This document shows positions 13,171 through 36,547 of a stretch of DNA of 64,000 nucleotides, in pieces. This DNA is from a virus. The notes beneath the pieces were generated by a model that saw nothing but the letters and a program-made list of their open reading frames with translations, was not told the origin of the DNA and did not search any database. Position 1 is the stretch's first letter; every line of letters begins with the position of its first letter. The DNA lies in IMG/VR virus record IMGVR_UViG_3300044612_001255, positions 1 through 64,000 of that record, one strand, 5' to 3'. Position numbers and translations under genes: made by a program.

Positions 13171-13188
13171 GAATTAAAGATACAAAAT

Positions 13189-13220
13189 TTTGGTAGTTAT
13201 CGATACATGTCCTAAATTTA
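13189..13220 (+). promoter_or_regulatory. Bacteroidota sigma-A-like promoter for the lysis operon
   Basis: TTTG (13189-92), 20-nt spacer, TAAATTTA (13213-20), one mismatch to TAnnTTTG. Confidence 0.5.
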
Positions 13221-13321
13221 CTACTATTCGCCAGAATTGAATAAAACTGTCCAAAAAACTCCATAGCACACCTCAAAAGGGGTGTGCTTTGTTGTTTCAA
13301 TCAATTGTAAATGAATCTAGT

Positions 13322-13645
13322 ATGTCAACTGACTTGTATCAGCAACAAATTAACAACGAATTAAAGAGTATGGATCAGCGTCTCTATGACCTAGAGGAGA
13401 AGATGTCTTCTATTGATGGGAAACTTACACAAGTGGTGGATGCAATTCTAGGCAATCCCCTAACAAAGTCTGGTGGATTTGTAGATAAAATAGAAATACT
13501 AGAAGAGAAGATTGCTCTAATGGAGAAAAAAATAGAAAAGCAAGAAGAATTTAGAAGAAGAATTACATGGACAATTGGAATAGTGGTAGCTATAGCAGCA
13601 TTGCTACAATATCTATCTGGCTTATTGTCCAACATCAATCAATAA
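13322..13645 (+). CDS. Coiled-coil protein with C-terminal TM (XhlA-like holin or antiholin candidate)
   Basis: Heptad coiled coil and a single TM (ITWTIGIVVAIAALL). First gene of the lysis operon. ATG at 13322 preferred over the TTG at 13289. Confidence 0.6.
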   Translation: MSTDLYQQQINNELKSMDQRLYDLEEKMSSIDGKLTQVVDAILGNPLTKSGGFVDKIEILEEKIALMEKKIEKQEEFRRRITWTIGIVVAIAALLQYLSGLLSNINQ

Positions 13646-13646
13646 A

Positions 13647-14399
13647 ATGAAAAACTTATCAAAAGAAGAACTGCTAAGTAGGATGGAGGCAATTAATCGT
13701 AGTAATGCGATTATTTACTTTGACCTAAATGGCTTTATTCTTGGAATGAATTCGATATTCTTGAAGGCAATGGGATTTCAAGAAAAGGAACATGATAAGT
13801 TAATAGGCAAGCATCACAGCATTTTTGTGTCCTACGAGTACTCAAAGTCTGATGACTACAAAAAGTTTTGGGAGACCTTAGCAAGTGGTCAATTTTATGA
13901 GGGTGAATTTGAAAGGAAAAAAGTAGATGGTAGCCCAATTTATTTGCAAGCAACCTATAACCCAATCTTTGACGATAACGGTATAATTACAAAAGTAATG
14001 AAGATAGCAACGGACATTACTGAAACCATTATCAGCAAGAATAAAATTAATGAGCTATCAAGGACGTTGCAGGTTGAGTTAGATAACACTAACAAGTTGA
14101 AACTAGCTATTGAAATTGAAAAGGACGCAGCCGTTAATGACTTAGATGCTACAATTAAGAAAAGCCAAAACGAGTTAATCAAAGTAATCGTAAAGTCTGC
14201 TTTATTTGTAATTATGAGTGTAGGCTTTATTACAACCATAATGTACTCCTTTGCTATTCTATCAAATAAAGACACACAGATTATTGGTTCAACATGGAGC
14301 AACATGTTCTCAGTGTTGTTGACCAATGCCTTTTCTATAGTAGGCACAATTATGGGAATTAAATATGCAACATCAGAAGATAAAAAATCAAAGGAATGA
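13647..14399 (+). CDS. PAS-domain membrane protein (chemoreceptor-type PAS + coiled coil + 2 TM)
   Basis: AINRSNAIIYFDLNG, GKHHSIF, FWETL, GEFER, QATYNPI and KIATDIT give a complete PAS/PAC domain as in PAS-containing MCPs. Two C-terminal hydrophobic helices. Confidence 0.85.
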   Translation: MKNLSKEELLSRMEAINRSNAIIYFDLNGFILGMNSIFLKAMGFQEKEHDKLIGKHHSIFVSYEYSKSDDYKKFWETLASGQFYEGEFERKKVDGSPIYLQATYNPIFDDNGIITKVMKIATDITETIISKNKINELSRTLQVELDNTNKLKLAIEIEKDAAVNDLDATIKKSQNELIKVIVKSALFVIMSVGFITTIMYSFAILSNKDTQIIGSTWSNMFSVLLTNAFSIVGTIMGIKYATSEDKKSKE

Positions 14400-14860
14400 A
14401 AATTAGCCCACATCTAAGCATTGCAGAAATTACTAGAAGTGATTCTGCAAAACGTCACGGAATTGACAACACTCCAACTGCTGAGCATTTGGAAAACTTT
14501 AAACTATTAGCTGAGAAAGTATTCGAACCTATTCGTGCACACTTTGGAGTTCCTATTTTTATCTCGAGCGGGTACAGAAGCAAGGCCCTCAATGATTTCA
14601 TTAAAGGTAGTTTGTCCAGTCAACATTGTAAGGGCGAAGCGATTGACATCGATATGGATGGCAGTAATGGAGAAGTAACTAATAGAATGGTATTTGACTT
14701 CATAAAAAATAAGTTGGATTTCGACCAGCTTATCTGGGAGTTTGGAACTGACTTTAATCCTGACTGGGTTCATGTCAGCTACACCAAGACTGGAAATAGG
14801 AAACAAAAGTTAAAAGCTGTTAGAGTGAATGGTAAAACATCTTATCAAGTATTCAAATGA
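14396..14860 (+). CDS. Endolysin, peptidase M15A (Zn D-Ala-D-Ala carboxypeptidase-like)
   Basis: ISSGYRS, SQHCKGEAIDID, FDQLIWE and WVHVSY motifs. Confidence 0.9.
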   Translation: MKISPHLSIAEITRSDSAKRHGIDNTPTAEHLENFKLLAEKVFEPIRAHFGVPIFISSGYRSKALNDFIKGSLSSQHCKGEAIDIDMDGSNGEVTNRMVFDFIKNKLDFDQLIWEFGTDFNPDWVHVSYTKTGNRKQKLKAVRVNGKTSYQVFK

Positions 14861-15108
14861 AACAATTCATAAAAGATTTATTTAACGATCAGAACAGCAT
14901 CAATGAAAAGTCCTTAGTGGGATTCATTGCTTTTGTAATGATGATTGCTACACTAATTACAGATGTTGTAACAGGTGTAATGGGAAAAGAAATGCCTATA
15001 CATGAATTCATATTTGATGGGTTTATGGTGATTGTGCTAGGATCATTTGGCATAGCTTCTGTAGATAAATGGATTAATAAGACAAAAAATAATAGTGTTG
15101 ATGAATAA
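14857..15108 (+). CDS. Small two-TM holin candidate
   Basis: 83 aa with two hydrophobic helices. ATGA overlap with the endolysin. Confidence 0.65.
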   Translation: MKQFIKDLFNDQNSINEKSLVGFIAFVMMIATLITDVVTGVMGKEMPIHEFIFDGFMVIVLGSFGIASVDKWINKTKNNSVDE

Positions 15109-15152
15109 TGAATAATTATTTATAAATTCACACTATTGAAAATGAATGAGTT

Positions 15153-15281
15153 ATGGCTAAAGCAAAAGTTACAGCTGAATCAAGAAAGATCTCCTTTGGA
15201 AAAAGAAGAATTGGAAAGGCTAGAAACATGAACACCCCAAAGGGTAAGAAGGTCAGTAAGTATAGAGGACAAGGAAGATAA
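15153..15281 (+). CDS. 42-aa basic peptide ending KYRGQGR (absent from the ORF track)
   Basis: Read manually: MAKAKVTAESRKISFGKRRIGKARNMNTPKGKKVSKYRGQGR*. Abuts the next ATG at 15284. Confidence 0.65.
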   Translation: MAKAKVTAESRKISFGKRRIGKARNMNTPKGKKVSKYRGQGR

Positions 15282-15283
15282 TC

Positions 15284-15934
15284 ATGGGCATATTCAACAA
15301 GCAGATAGGCTGGAGCCAAGAATCTAATCTTCTCTGGGAGATTGCTAATCAATTGAATAAATTGATTGGTGTCACCAGTAAGGTTAGTGGACCTCCAGGA
15401 CCACAAGGACCTCCAGGTCCATCAGATGGTTTGTTTGCTCAAACAGCGAATAGCACTCCTGTAACTGCCACCACTGTTGAAACATCTTTAGTTAATGGTG
15501 GTGTAGGATCAATGAGTGTTCCAGCCAATGGATTTGCTGTTGGTGATAGCTTTAACGCTGCTTTGAGTGGTGTGATGGATGCTGCTAATAATCAAACTAT
15601 ACGAATTAGAGTGAAAGCTGGATCTGTTGTTCTTCTTGATAGTGGTATTCAATCATTATCAAATGCTATCATAGACGACATTTGGACATTAAATATTGAC
15701 TTTACTATTAGACAAATTGGTGCTGCTGGTGTAGCGTCAATTGCTTCGTTTGGCAGATTCACCTATGCTAAAACAAATAATGCTAGTCTAGAAGGTTTTG
15801 GAATCAACACTGTCAACTCCACCACCTTTGACACTACAGTTAGTAACATGTTAGATATCACTGTTCAATGGGGAAGTAACAATGCTGGAAACAGTATATA
15901 TACAGATGTTTTTGTACTAAATAAAATTTATTAA
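15284..15934 (+). CDS. Virion decoration/fibre protein with short GPP collagen segment and beta-sandwich head
   Basis: N-terminal anchor MGIFNKQIGWSQESNLLW, then GPPGPQGPPGP, then a beta-rich domain. Confidence 0.65.
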   Translation: MGIFNKQIGWSQESNLLWEIANQLNKLIGVTSKVSGPPGPQGPPGPSDGLFAQTANSTPVTATTVETSLVNGGVGSMSVPANGFAVGDSFNAALSGVMDAANNQTIRIRVKAGSVVLLDSGIQSLSNAIIDDIWTLNIDFTIRQIGAAGVASIASFGRFTYAKTNNASLEGFGINTVNSTTFDTTVSNMLDITVQWGSNNAGNSIYTDVFVLNKIY

Positions 15935-34234: not shown

Positions 34235-36547
34235 TTAACAAAATTGTTCTTCTAATTTATCTTCTTCAAGACGAGTGTAGTGATCAAGATTCACTTTGAA
34301 TTTGTGATACTTCATCAAATCTACCATAGCTCTTTCAACTCCTGGAGACATACTAGTATTATAAGTATAGAAATTAAGTGATCCAAGAAGAGCATTTAGA
34401 AAATACAGCTTTTCAAGAGTTGCTTTCATACGTATATACTCATGGTATATACTGTAATCGAAAAGGTTCTTCTCTTGTGCTAATTCAAGCATAGCGTTAT
34501 AAATCTCAGTGGATCCATCTCTATAGTTCTTGTTTCTATAGTCTTCAAGCAATGATAGCTTATTCATTAACTCGCTTGATACATTTTTCAAATAAGTATA
34601 TTTTCTGAAAACATACGTTTGATCAGTCATTAGCTTATTAATTACATAAGCAGTGACAAGCTTCTTGAATGGTTTGTTTGTACCCTCCATAAATTTTGAA
34701 TAAGACATTACATTGTTCAACTCTAGTTCTTCAAGCACCTTCATCTCTTTGGTTGACAGAGAGATTATAGTGATGTTCATTTTACCATAAGATATGCCAT
34801 ATAGCTTATCAAGCTTCAGGCTATCATCATGATGACTATACACCAATAGAGTTTTCTTCTTTGCTATCTCCTTCAAAGACCACGTGTCAGCAACAAACTT
34901 ACAATGCTTACCATCAACAAATCTTTCTAGTGGAGCTGCCTTCTTGACAATGATATCACCAGCTAGCTTCTCACGTCTATTAACTGCTGTTCTACCAGTA
35001 ATTTGCTTTCTAGACTGAATAAAGCTGTCTGGAACAACAACATCATCAAGATTCTTGAATCCAGAAATCATAGATTTCACAATACCCTGAAACTCTATGA
35101 TTGCCTCTCTCCAGTGTTCTCTGTTAATCTTAGAAAGTTCTAGCAGTTGATAATAGTTATCATTACGTTTCAAACTTTTGATATAACTAGAACCATCGCT
35201 TTTATTAAACAAAGAGAACGTTCCTGTTCTTTTCACAAAGTAATAATTGCTGTATGTACCATTCTGTAAATGAGTTCTTAGATACGCCTTCTTCAACTCT
35301 GAGATCCTAGAAGAATACATGTATGTGTTGTTGCCCATAACATTGTTTCTACTAACATTCGATTCCCAGCTTCCACTCTTCACTTCCTTGAACTTTCCTC
35401 TGTTGAGAGTGTATGTTACAGCATACTCATTTAGAATGTATTCACTCTTATCAACAAGCTTTCTTAGATCAAGATGTTTTACACCTTCCATTTTAGGCTC
35501 ATTCATCACTATATCGCTGAAGATAGATAGGTAACCAACGTTCAAAGACTTGCCAGGAACAATCTCTACACTTCTTTTCTTGCTGGTGTAATACTCTATC
35601 ACTTGATCAAATGTAGAGCAGTTTTGCATCTCACGATTGTATTTCTCAATGAAGAAGTCAGACATTTGTCCCAATCTTTTGAGAATAATGTCCTTAGCTT
35701 CTTGTGTATACCTGATAGCCTCTCTGTTTGGTGTTGGAAATATTCCATCAGTCAAACTAAATCTCAATGCTACAGGAAACTCTAAATGAGAAATACCAAG
35801 CTTACCAAAGTCTAGTGGATAATACACATTGTCTAGACAAATGTGTAGGTAATTATCCTTTGACATTTCAGAATACTGAAAGTGCTCACTACGATAGATG
35901 GTGAATTTGTTATTCAAAGTGTATCCAGCTGCTGTAACATCAAGATACACACTATCAAAATAAGCTAGTTGCTCCTGAATTTTGTCGTAGAAGCTAAATC
36001 TATCACCCCATTTAACTGGAATAATCACCTTGACACCATTTCCTTCAGCTGTAGGTCTTTCATACAGACGATCAATAGTGTTTGTGTCCTCACCTTCGTA
36101 CATCATATACTTACGTTCTATGTTATCTTTACGACAGATGAAATAGAAACTAGATGAATAAGCAAGAGGGGCTTTAAAGCCAAGCCCCATCATGCCTAAT
36201 TCTGTATTAGAGTTACGTTTGGTAGACTTACCATACTTACTAATGATGTTCCTCACATCATCATCATTTAGACCAACACCAAAGTCTTCTACAGAGAAGT
36301 AGTAGTTGTTATTGTCATCTAGTTTAAAACTTACAACAATTGGATCTTCCACACAAGCTCTTCTGTGACTATCTAGTGCATTACTTGCACACTCTCTGAT
36401 AGTTGAGCCTATTGAATCTGAATAGAGATTCTTACTTAACATCTGCATCAAAATCTGAGCAGAATCTAAGTCCAAAGACATTCCAATTGATTCGTTTATT
36501 TCGCCATCAGCGAAAACCATTGCTTCTTTTTGTTTTTCTAGTATCAT
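34235..36547 (-). CDS. rIIA-like GHKL ATPase
   Basis: NLYSD..IRECASNALDSH, VEDFGVG, STKR, GLGFKAPLAY and PNREAI motifs. Confidence 0.85.
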   Translation of the reverse strand: MILEKQKEAMVFADGEINESIGMSLDLDSAQILMQMLSKNLYSDSIGSTIRECASNALDSHRRACVEDPIVVSFKLDDNNNYYFSVEDFGVGLNDDDVRNIISKYGKSTKRNSNTELGMMGLGFKAPLAYSSSFYFICRKDNIERKYMMYEGEDTNTIDRLYERPTAEGNGVKVIIPVKWGDRFSFYDKIQEQLAYFDSVYLDVTAAGYTLNNKFTIYRSEHFQYSEMSKDNYLHICLDNVYYPLDFGKLGISHLEFPVALRFSLTDGIFPTPNREAIRYTQEAKDIILKRLGQMSDFFIEKYNREMQNCSTFDQVIEYYTSKKRSVEIVPGKSLNVGYLSIFSDIVMNEPKMEGVKHLDLRKLVDKSEYILNEYAVTYTLNRGKFKEVKSGSWESNVSRNNVMGNNTYMYSSRISELKKAYLRTHLQNGTYSNYYFVKRTGTFSLFNKSDGSSYIKSLKRNDNYYQLLELSKINREHWREAIIEFQGIVKSMISGFKNLDDVVVPDSFIQSRKQITGRTAVNRREKLAGDIIVKKAAPLERFVDGKHCKFVADTWSLKEIAKKKTLLVYSHHDDSLKLDKLYGISYGKMNITIISLSTKEMKVLEELELNNVMSYSKFMEGTNKPFKKLVTAYVINKLMTDQTYVFRKYTYLKNVSSELMNKLSLLEDYRNKNYRDGSTEIYNAMLELAQEKNLFDYSIYHEYIRMKATLEKLYFLNALLGSLNFYTYNTSMSPGVERAMVDLMKYHKFKVNLDHYTRLEEDKLEEQFC

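What the first reader, a model, noticed from the sequence alone, without database searches (positions are those of the whole stretch)
13322..15108. Candidate sensor-controlled lysis system: chemoreceptor-type PAS domain fused to a holin-like tail inside the holin-endolysin operon
Seen: four tightly coupled genes: coiled-coil+TM (stop 13645), PAS protein (13647-14399), M15A endolysin (ATGA overlap) and two-TM protein (ATGA overlap). The PAS protein has one intact PAS/PAC domain, a coiled coil, and two C-terminal TMs ending IVGTIMGIKYA plus a charged tail. It has no kinase, GGDEF or MCP signalling domain. Established: PAS domains of this type occur in Aer/BdlA-like receptors, where they often bind flavin or heme and sense redox, O2 or energy state; holin triggering depends on membrane energisation and oligomerisation. 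Inference: the membrane segment is the output, making this a PAS-gated holin or antiholin that sets lysis time by host physiological state. I know of no described example, but could not search.
Basis: partly seen in the sequence, partly recalled or inferred. Interest (0 to 1): 0.88.

Follow-up and report, generated by a model that had tools for sequence, protein, structure and literature searches.

The report
Optional PAS sensor-hairpin in phage lysis cassette
A complete 108-kb lake-water phage carries, wedged directly before its cell-wall-cutting enzyme, an optional gene that joins a cytoplasmic PAS sensor through one long helix to an almost invariant two-helix membrane hairpin, so the phage probably tunes when it bursts its host to a signal inside the cell; no studied phage is known to do this and nothing has been tested.

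Summary
In detail: four translationally coupled + strand genes. They are an XhlA-like coiled-coil/TM protein, a 250-aa PAS-coiled coil-2TM protein, an M15 endolysin and a small 2-TM holin-like protein ("c1").

The PAS-2TM protein belongs to a phage-only family with one or two PAS domains. In 77 of 80 related viral loci it lies within four genes of an endolysin, and the endolysins come from three unrelated families (M15, GH19, GH24). The gene is optional: only 11 of 80 loci with a near-identical endolysin carry it, and some phages have this window's cassette without it.

Its last 33 residues (turn, TM2, start of the tail) are invariant across lineages despite heavy synonymous change. In a second lineage the same hairpin lacks PAS and follows a phage-encoded PAS-histidine kinase and a receiver protein. 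The hairpin therefore looks like a signal-controlled output module.

Best reading: an accessory, sensor-gated lysis-timing regulator, not the essential holin. The mechanism, the cofactor and the signal are inferred, not shown. I found no published description. This scan has already flagged the same family on other genomes. Interest 0.8.

The parts
13265..13288 (+). GC-rich hairpin followed by a T-rich run, in the gap between the divergent glycosyltransferase genes and the cassette. It marks the cassette's upstream border.
   Evidence: Terminator-like site, 10 pairs. The sequence was read.
13322..13645 (+). ORF1, 107 aa: coiled coil plus a C-terminal TM helix (residues 81-99). XhlA-like lysis-cassette protein. 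The alternative TTG start at 13289 would give 118 aa.
   Evidence: phrog_937 'hemolysin' 9.3e-6; TM predicted. The same protein directly precedes M15 in the PAS-less cassettes L219 and L220.
13647..14399 (+). PAS-coiled coil-2TM protein, 250 aa: the finding itself.
   Evidence: It is the only copy in the 108-kb genome.
13704..14015 (+). PAS core (residues 20-123), preceded by an N-cap helix (residues 6-19). Cytoplasmic sensor domain; cofactor unknown.
   Evidence: Pfam PAS_9, PAS_3, PAS and PAS_4. AF2 model pLDDT 80-88 over this part. Foldseek: short LOV 7r5n, MmoS 3ewk, NifL 2gj3, Aer 8dik.
14019..14261 (+). One continuous helix (residues 125-205): the J-alpha-like/coiled-coil linker (125-177) running straight into TM1 (178-205).
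   Evidence: AF2 secondary structure H125-205; hydropathy. The lineage-2 form has the same design, with helix 38-151.
14271..14369 (+). Invariant 33-residue block D209-A241 (DTQIIGSTWSNMFSVLLTNAFSIVGTIMGIKYA): periplasmic turn plus all of TM2, with a Ser/Thr/Asn/Gln/Gly stripe on one face of the helix.
   Evidence: Invariant in alignment A1 across both lineages. About half of its codons differ synonymously. Polar stripe: 119 of 10,000 shuffles are as concentrated.
14370..14396 (+). Short mixed-charge cytoplasmic C-terminal tail (TSEDKKSKE).
   Evidence: Its sequence varies between relatives.
14396..14860 (+). Endolysin, peptidase M15 (no signal or SAR segment). Its start overlaps the PAS gene's stop (ATGA).
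   Evidence: PF08291 4.4e-19 and phrog_894 5.5e-33; no TM predicted; junction read.
14857..15108 (+). c1: 83-aa protein with two TM helices and a charged C-terminus. Candidate class II-type holin and the constant partner of the family. ATGA overlap with M15.
   Evidence: TMs. Same family within two genes in 50 of 80 lineage-1 loci and within four genes in 28 of 80 lineage-2 loci. Present in PAS-less cassettes and about 6 kb away in L054-type phages. No family hit.

Best explanation
The 250-aa protein is an accessory, signal-gated regulator of host lysis. It is built as input -> rigid helix -> membrane hairpin. A cytoplasmic PAS domain senses something inside the infected cell (ligand, redox or energy state; unknown). 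Its C-terminal J-alpha-type helix continues without a break, as a probable dimeric coiled coil, into TM1. A 5-residue periplasmic turn and an invariant, polar-striped TM2 complete an N-in/C-in hairpin. The state of the sensor is passed down the helix and changes how the hairpins pack or oligomerise in the inner membrane. That advances or delays the firing of the phage's real holin (most likely c1) and hence the release of the cytoplasmic M15 endolysin. The hairpin is invariant while the neighbouring holins and endolysins vary. I therefore think it acts generically, most likely as a self-assembling leak or trigger acting on membrane energisation, to which all holins respond, rather than as a holin-specific antiholin. 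Shown here: the architecture, the lysis-cassette linkage, the optional presence, the phage-only distribution, purifying selection on the hairpin, and interchangeable sensory inputs. Inferred: every functional step, the sign of the effect and the signal.
For: Location: translationally coupled to the endolysin. In 80 related viral loci an endolysin lies within 4 genes in 77, is adjacent in 51, and is present in 37 of 38 loci with full flanks. The endolysins are M15, GH19 or GH24, and spanin-like lipoproteins and PF05105 holins are also nearby.

Accessory status: of 80 loci whose M15 is 81-96% identical, 11 carry the gene, and 62 of 72 with room upstream lack it. In syntenic relatives the gene sits exactly between c1 and M15. 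L219 and L220 have this window's cassette without it.

Output module: the tail is always C-terminal in all 117 representatives. The inputs are one PAS, two PAS, a second PAS type, or a small N-domain that follows a phage PAS-histidine kinase and a receiver protein in 71 of 80 loci.

Design: AF2 gives the PAS core and then one helix (125-205) into TM1. The lineage-2 form gives the same design at pLDDT 86.

Constraint: 33 invariant residues with about 50% synonymous codon differences, and a polar stripe on TM2.

Phage-only: 5 MAG contigs among about 185,000 species genomes.

No similarity between the hairpin and c1.

Established knowledge: holins fire when the proton motive force drops, pinholins act by depolarising, and known antiholins pair with a cognate holin (PMC9636201; PMC11413866).
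Against: No experiment exists for any member of the family. In lineage 2 only 29 of 80 loci have any lysis gene within 4 genes, and only 13 of 80 have an endolysin there, so the hairpin's job may not be lysis as such. The PAS cofactor cannot be read from the sequence; the LOV-defining residues are not kept, and by my recollection of Aer's FAD-binding residues neither are those. In L054-L057 the gene sits alone with the endolysin, as a holin would, although c1 is encoded about 6 kb away. Extreme conservation of a TM helix could equally mean a conserved host target. Transcription timing is unknown. RNA-library contigs of relatives bridge the PAS/M15 junction but may be DNA carry-over.
Confidence: 0.5

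Rival explanations
1. Cognate antiholin: the hairpin binds the c1 holin in the membrane and blocks its oligomerisation until the PAS domain changes state. This would resemble T4 RI with holin T or P1 LydB with LydA, but with a cytoplasmic sensor.
For: The gene is optional while c1 is the constant partner. It sits between c1 and the endolysin in most lineage-1 loci. Known antiholins are accessory membrane proteins that tune timing (PMC11413866; PMC7182436; PMC9025707).
Against: The hairpin is invariant, whereas c1 is only 40-79% identical among relatives and falls into two subtypes. Some loci with the hairpin have a PF05105 holin and no c1 nearby. There is no detectable homology between the hairpin and c1. 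A specific TM-TM partnership would be expected to co-vary.
Confidence: 0.15
2. Sensor-gated holin proper: the hairpin itself forms the lethal holes that release the endolysin, and PAS sets the trigger point.
For: It has the N-in/C-in two-TM topology with a charged C-terminus and lies directly upstream of the endolysin. In L054-L057 it and a GH19 endolysin form a two-gene unit with no other membrane protein adjacent. TM2 has a polar stripe.
Against: It is absent from most phages with near-identical endolysin cassettes, which keep c1. The L054-type phages still encode c1. It matches no holin family. Holins are normally highly variable, not invariant. The endolysins here have no signal or SAR segment and so need large holes.
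Confidence: 0.08
3. Host-directed membrane effector unrelated to lysis timing: the invariant hairpin docks onto a conserved host inner-membrane machine (for example a proton-driven motor, a transporter or a respiratory complex) to take over or protect the infected cell, under sensory control. Its place near lysis genes would reflect a permissive insertion site in a late operon.
For: Invariance with saturating synonymous change suggests a partner that does not vary. In lineage 2 the constant neighbours are the kinase, the receiver and an unknown 176-aa protein, not lysis genes. The gene is optional, like a moron.
Against: In lineage 1 the link to endolysins holds across three enzyme families and many gene orders, with start/stop overlaps. 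That is hard to explain by an insertion hotspot alone. No host target is identified.
Confidence: 0.2
4. Decoy or remnant: a membrane-tethered PAS domain with no output, which titrates a host ligand or signalling partner or is a decaying fragment of a captured receptor.
For: No recognised output domain is present. Public annotation calls relatives 'methyl-accepting chemotaxis protein'.
Against: There are thousands of intact homologs under strong purifying selection, and the tail is the most conserved part. The tail also occurs without PAS. The family is absent from cellular genomes.
Confidence: 0.04

Closest known systems
Lysis inhibition systems: T4 holin T with antiholins RI (periplasmic) and RIII (cytoplasmic) (PMC11413866), and ICP1 TeaA/ArrA (PMC7182436)
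   Same: These are accessory phage proteins encoded with or near lysis genes that adjust the time of holin firing in response to information about the infection. They are dispensable for lysis itself.
   Different: There is no sequence or fold relationship. RI senses superinfection from the periplasm and binds the holin's periplasmic domain. Here the sensor is a cytoplasmic PAS domain fused through a helix to its own TM hairpin, and binding to a holin has not been shown.
Dual-start antiholins and pinholins: lambda S107/S105 and phage 21 S21-71/S21-68 (PMC9636201)
   Same: Small N-in/C-in two- or three-TM proteins in which an N-terminal cytoplasmic extension decides whether the TM domains can assemble. 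Pinholin pores are lined by a hydrophilic helix face and act by collapsing the proton motive force.
   Different: In those systems the extension is one or two residues on the same gene product as the holin. Here it is a 135-177-residue sensor plus coiled coil on a separate, optional gene with no similarity to the neighbouring holin-like protein. The endolysins here are not SAR-type.
Short LOV proteins and PAS-J-alpha sensors (PF5-LOV 7r5n, PpSB1-LOV, YF1 4gcz); flavin PAS domains of MmoS (3ewk), NifL (2gj3) and Aer (8dik)
   Same: The predicted fold is the same: N-cap helix, PAS core and a long C-terminal J-alpha helix that, in those proteins, forms a dimeric coiled coil and carries the signal to the output.
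   Different: In the alignment the LOV photo-cysteine position is Ser and the flavin-contacting Asn and Gln positions are Leu and Ala. The positions I recall as Aer's FAD-binding Arg-His-x-Asp read Val-Ser-x-Glu. The output here is a membrane hairpin, not a kinase, an MCP module or a free helix.
Bacillus PBSX lysis cassette xhlA-xhlB-xlyA (PMC5589764)
   Same: ORF1 of this cassette resembles XhlA (coiled coil plus C-terminal TM; phrog_937) and likewise precedes the holin and endolysin genes.
   Different: The match is weak (9e-6). The probable host is a Gram-negative bacterium, and PBSX has no sensor protein.

Membership tests
PAS domain superfamily (Pfam PAS_9/PAS_3; TIGR00229) | Significant profile match and the five-stranded PAS fold with flanking helices | tested here: met
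   PAS_9 40.3 bits against a cut-off of 27; TIGR00229 51.2 against 22.9. AF2 gives a PAS fold; Foldseek E about 1e-9 to many PAS/LOV structures.
LOV (blue-light, FMN) subfamily | Photoactive Cys in the GXNCRFLQ motif and the flavin-binding Asn/Gln on the beta-sheet | tested here: not met
   In the phototropin alignment the Cys position is Ser, and the Asn and Gln positions are Leu and Ala.
Aer/NifL/MmoS-type FAD-binding PAS | FAD-contacting residues (in Aer, Arg57-His58-x-Asp60; recalled from the literature, not verified here) | tested here: inconclusive
   Best PDB sequence hit is MmoS PAS-A (2.5e-8). Aer aligns at 0.0086, with Val-Ser-x-Glu at the Arg-His-x-Asp positions. The residue roles come from memory. 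A cofactor can only be settled by spectroscopy.
Methyl-accepting chemotaxis protein (the name public annotation gives to relatives) | MCP signalling domain (highly conserved cytoplasmic hairpin, PF00015) | tested here: not met
   No MCPsignal or HAMP hit in Pfam or NCBIfam at E <= 0.1 or 0.01. The name rests on PAS similarity only.
Holins (any described family) | Match to a holin family profile | tested here: not met
   No holin family in Pfam, PHROGs or NCBIfam. There is only a weak hit to phrog_1544, of unknown function (0.0014). Atlas look-alikes were uninformative.
Holins (functional class II definition) | Small protein with two TM domains (N-in/C-in) and a charged C-terminus, encoded beside the endolysin | tested here: inconclusive
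   Topology, tail and position fit. The size (250 aa, with a 177-aa cytoplasmic part), the invariance and the optional presence do not fit.
Holins (functional definition) | Forms lethal, energy-sensitive membrane lesions that release endolysin | not testable with these tools
   This needs expression and lysis assays.
Antiholins | Binds the cognate holin and delays its triggering | not testable with these tools
There is no homology to c1. Being optional is compatible with an antiholin.
Peptidase M15 endolysin (neighbouring gene) | Peptidase_M15_3 profile and phage endolysin PHROG | tested here: met
   PF08291 69 bits against a cut-off of 23.2; phrog_894 5.5e-33.
XhlA (ORF1) | Profile match plus a coiled coil and a C-terminal TM helix in a lysis cassette | tested here: inconclusive
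   phrog_937 at 9.3e-6 over residues 20-109. No Pfam XhlA hit at E <= 0.1. Architecture and position fit.

The most novel reading that the evidence does not exclude
A phage-only family of signal-gated membrane switches. One invariant inner-membrane hairpin is driven either by directly fused PAS sensors (as in this window) or by a phage-encoded PAS-histidine kinase -> receiver relay. This lets large aquatic phages read the host's internal state (redox, oxygen, energy or a metabolite) and decide when to depolarise and burst the cell. It would be the first lysis clock with a dedicated cytoplasmic sensor domain.
Probability: 0.4. Interest if true: 0.9.

Novelty: new variant of a known kind. Interest (0 to 1): 0.8.

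Why it matters
Lysis timing sets phage fitness and burst size. The only known case of a phage adjusting it to outside information is lysis inhibition in T-even phages and ICP1, which senses superinfection. A PAS-coupled lysis-cassette protein would show that phages also read the physiological state of the infected cell. The family is abundant: 4,688 database hits to the whole protein at E <= 0.001 (many may match the PAS domain only), 117 representative clusters carrying the tail, hundreds of viral contigs, and lake metagenomes from more than ten studies. It is compact and modular, so it offers a directly testable system: one gene, with natural plus and minus variants, and a soluble domain to purify. 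It could also yield a ligand- or redox-controlled membrane switch for engineered lysis. In addition, it corrects a widespread mis-annotation ('methyl-accepting chemotaxis protein').

Tried and rejected
Hairpin x c1, hairpin homo-oligomer and receiver x N-domain could not be tested.

Searches that found nothing useful:
- blastn of the region against cultured phages gave no match.
- tblastn of the protein against cultured phages found only unrelated PAS hits.
- The ESM Atlas search on the tail gave one viral hypothetical cluster at 0.78, below the lead threshold.
- NCBIfam found nothing beyond the PAS S-box.
- The sigma-70 promoter scan was at chance level, and the Bacteroidota -7 motif TAnnTTTG is absent from the 13171-13321 gap. 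The promoter is therefore unknown.

Stand-alone tail as a holin: rejected.
- The recurrent 133-aa database proteins start at the internal Met118 on short contigs.
- The 108-aa forms are mis-started genes of about 190 aa whose N-terminal 75 residues are conserved and abut the upstream gene.

Direction of the change in PAS copy number:
- The single PAS has PAS1's N-cap and PAS2's linker with a mixed middle.
- This does not tell deletion from duplication.

Other negative or weak results:
- hhalign of the hairpin against c1: no relationship.
- RNA-library contigs come from relatives at 85-99% identity and may be DNA carry-over. The parts without cover mean nothing.
- The HATPase_c hit in the window's own genome is rIIA, not a sensor kinase.
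Full report
**What is there**

The window is part of a complete 108,291-bp virus record with direct terminal repeats. It is a large tailed phage with rIIA/rIIB, DNA polymerase, terminase, portal and collagen-like fibres. Its terminase is most like that of a Leptolyngbya phage (40%) and of Cellulophaga and Flavobacterium phages (about 31%).

Behind a hairpin at 13265-13288, four + strand genes follow one another with a 1-nt gap and two ATGA overlaps:
- ORF1 (13322-13645): coiled coil plus a C-terminal TM helix, with a weak match to the XhlA 'hemolysin' PHROG (9e-6).
- The 250-aa PAS protein (13647-14399).
- A Peptidase_M15_3 endolysin (14396-14860; 4e-19 and phrog_894 5.5e-33).
- An 83-aa protein with two TM helices and a charged end (14857-15108; I call its family c1). 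It matches no described family.

**Anatomy of the PAS protein**

Pfam and NCBIfam find one PAS domain and nothing else. AlphaFold2, run on an alignment of 16 relatives (mean pLDDT 76), predicts the following:
- an N-cap helix (residues 6-19) and a PAS core (20-123);
- a single uninterrupted helix from residue 125 to 205, which starts as a J-alpha-type linker and ends as TM1;
- a five-residue turn;
- a second helix (211-247) that contains TM2.

The expected topology is N-in/C-in with a short mixed-charge tail.

The closest solved folds are short LOV proteins with their J-alpha helix, and the FAD-binding PAS domains of MmoS, NifL and Aer. In the residue-level alignments, however, the LOV cysteine is Ser and the flavin-contacting Asn and Gln are Leu and Ala. 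The positions I recall as Aer's FAD-binding Arg-His-x-Asp read Val-Ser-x-Glu. The cofactor, if there is one, is therefore unknown. An invariant His56-His57 pair in the pocket region is worth mutating, but no more can be said.

**The family**

A word-indexed search returned 4,688 proteins. The best are about 370 aa, with two tandem PAS domains, the same coiled coil and the same tail, and JGI names many of them 'methyl-accepting chemotaxis protein'. No MCP domain is present.

One-PAS forms like the window's are also common. The single PAS carries PAS1's N-cap and PAS2's linker, as any in-frame change of repeat number would give. The direction of that change cannot be told.

An exhaustive profile search with the tail alone found only 117 representatives at 50% identity. 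The tail is at the C-terminus in every one. The N-terminal parts are of four kinds: one PAS, two PAS, a different PAS type (P0293), and, most often, a small domain of about 75 aa.

Among about 185,000 prokaryotic species genomes the tail occurs on just five MAG contigs, binned to five different taxa. The family is therefore effectively phage-only.

**Linkage to lysis**

I called ORFs in 80 viral loci that encode the PAS-fused form and clustered their neighbours.
- An endolysin lies within four genes in 77 of 80 loci, is immediately adjacent in 51, and is present in 37 of 38 loci with both flanks complete.
- The endolysins belong to three unrelated families: M15, GH19 (PF00182, phrog_181) and GH24 (PF00959).
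- The c1 family is within two genes in 50 of 80 loci.
- PF05105 holins and lipoprotein-type, spanin-like genes also recur.

**The gene is optional**

I collected 80 loci by their M15 endolysin, which is 81-96% identical to the window's.
- Only 11 carry the PAS gene, and 62 of the 72 with enough upstream DNA lack it.
- In PAS-less relatives, c1 overlaps the endolysin start directly. In PAS-bearing relatives with the same flanking genes, the PAS gene sits exactly between c1 and the endolysin.
- Two loci (L219, L220) have this window's own arrangement (XhlA-like, M15, c1) without the PAS gene.
- In four loci the tandem-PAS gene and a GH19 endolysin form a two-gene unit with no other membrane protein adjacent, but those phages still encode a c1 homolog about 6 kb away.

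The constant holin candidate is therefore c1. The PAS protein is an add-on.

**The hairpin is an output module**

A second viral lineage (317 contigs, 80 examined) has the same tail without PAS. The database's 108-aa versions are mis-started: the true genes are about 190 aa, and their conserved N-terminus abuts the upstream gene.

In 71 of 80 of these loci the tail gene directly follows two others:
- a receiver-only protein (PF00072);
- a membrane-anchored histidine kinase (HATPase_c 3e-13), which usually carries a PAS domain very like the window's.

AlphaFold2 (pLDDT 86) gives the same design for this form: a tiny N-domain, one 114-residue helix running into TM1, a turn, and TM2.

So the same hairpin is wired either to a fused PAS or, apparently, to a phage-encoded two-component relay. 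That is the classic signature of a signalling output. The window's phage itself has no receiver domain, no sensor kinase and no PF05105 holin.

In this second lineage lysis genes are nearby in only about a third of loci. This is the main reason for caution about function.

**Constraint on the hairpin**

Between lineages that are about 55% identical elsewhere, 33 consecutive residues are invariant (DTQIIGSTWSNMF..LLTNAFSIVGTIMG.KYA: the turn, all of TM2 and the first cytoplasmic residues; the two dotted positions vary conservatively). About half of the codons in this block differ synonymously, so this is selection on the protein, not recent transfer or a DNA element.

TM2 carries ten Ser/Thr/Asn/Gln residues, concentrated with two glycines on one face. 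Only 119 of 10,000 shuffles are as concentrated. The hairpin shows no profile similarity to c1.

**Interpretation**

Holins are notoriously variable and are essential to their phages. This hairpin is invariant and dispensable, so I do not think it is the holin.

Known antiholins pair with one cognate holin (PMC11413866, PMC9025707, PMC9636201). Here the hairpin stays the same while the neighbouring holin-like genes (two c1 subtypes, PF05105) and the endolysins change, which argues against a specific TM-TM partnership.

All holins fire when the proton motive force falls, and pinholins work by depolarising (PMC9636201). The most economical mechanism is therefore a sensor-gated, self-assembling hairpin that alters membrane energisation and so advances lysis, or withholds it, whatever the holin.

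I put 0.5 on 'accessory, signal-gated lysis-timing regulator acting through the hairpin', and roughly 0.3 on the generic-trigger sub-mechanism. The rivals are:
- a cognate antiholin of c1 (0.15);
- a conserved host membrane target with a function other than lysis (0.2);
- the gated holin proper (0.08);
- a decoy (0.04).

**Expression and ecology**

The cassette is held almost whole in lake-water metagenomes from more than ten studies. Contigs from three freshwater metatranscriptome studies cover relatives of the gene and run across the PAS/endolysin junction. This is compatible with co-transcription but is not proof, since RNA libraries can contain DNA.

**Novelty**

Full-text searches for PAS with holin, antiholin, endolysin or phage sensors, and for phage two-component systems with lysis, found no description.

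The scan itself has flagged the same family on other genomes, and follow-up agents reached similar readings. I took two things from those notes. One was the lead that the gene is optional, which I then tested. The other was two citations, which I checked. Their claim that the receiver grips the hairpin protein could not be tested here.

Conceptually this is a new variant of a known kind (lysis-timing regulators, lysis inhibition) with a new type of input. Everything functional remains to be shown.

Noticed in passing
window 15153-15281 (+): A 42-aa, extremely basic peptide (ends ...KYRGQGR) lies just after the cassette. Homologs recur beside lysis cassettes in many related loci: before c1 in L168, L175 and L188, and after the membrane genes in L219 and L220. 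No family hit.
   Followed up: partly
L081-L160, e.g. L106:2083-4327: A phage-encoded three-gene module: a 2-TM PAS-histidine kinase, a receiver-only protein, and the hairpin protein with a small N-domain. An unknown 176-aa protein usually follows, and in some loci c1, M15 and a PF05105 holin come after that. Some of the kinases lack PAS (L133, L112).
   Followed up: partly
P0307 and P0282: Odd fusions of the same hairpin: one to a glycosyltransferase-2 fragment, one to an N-terminus with a weak C2H2 zinc-finger match. They may be real rewirings or assembly or frameshift artefacts.
   Followed up: no
L133:4407-5701: In this lineage-2 locus the hairpin gene is followed by two small one-TM proteins. 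Next come a weak Rz-like i-spanin candidate with an overlapping downstream gene, then a GH19 endolysin and a further 199-aa protein. This is a fuller Gram-negative lysis cassette than the window's, which has no obvious spanin.
   Followed up: no
window 34235-36547 (-): The only HATPase_c match in the whole phage genome is the rIIA homolog (27.3 bits). rIIA and rIIB are present and may bear on membrane or lysis phenotypes.
   Followed up: no
window 13200-15300, sequencing runs: Besides lake-water metagenomes, two runs from one sample labelled 'crustacean metagenome' hold 91-95% of the sampled words of the cassette.
   Followed up: no
L054:2764-3864 (-) and the record behind it: The L054-type contigs are fragments (19-39% complete by CheckV) of much larger phages. 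There the tandem-PAS gene and a GH19 endolysin with an N-terminal extension sit behind divergently transcribed genes, and c1 lies about 6 kb away beside a Thr/Pro-rich fibre-like gene.
   Followed up: partly
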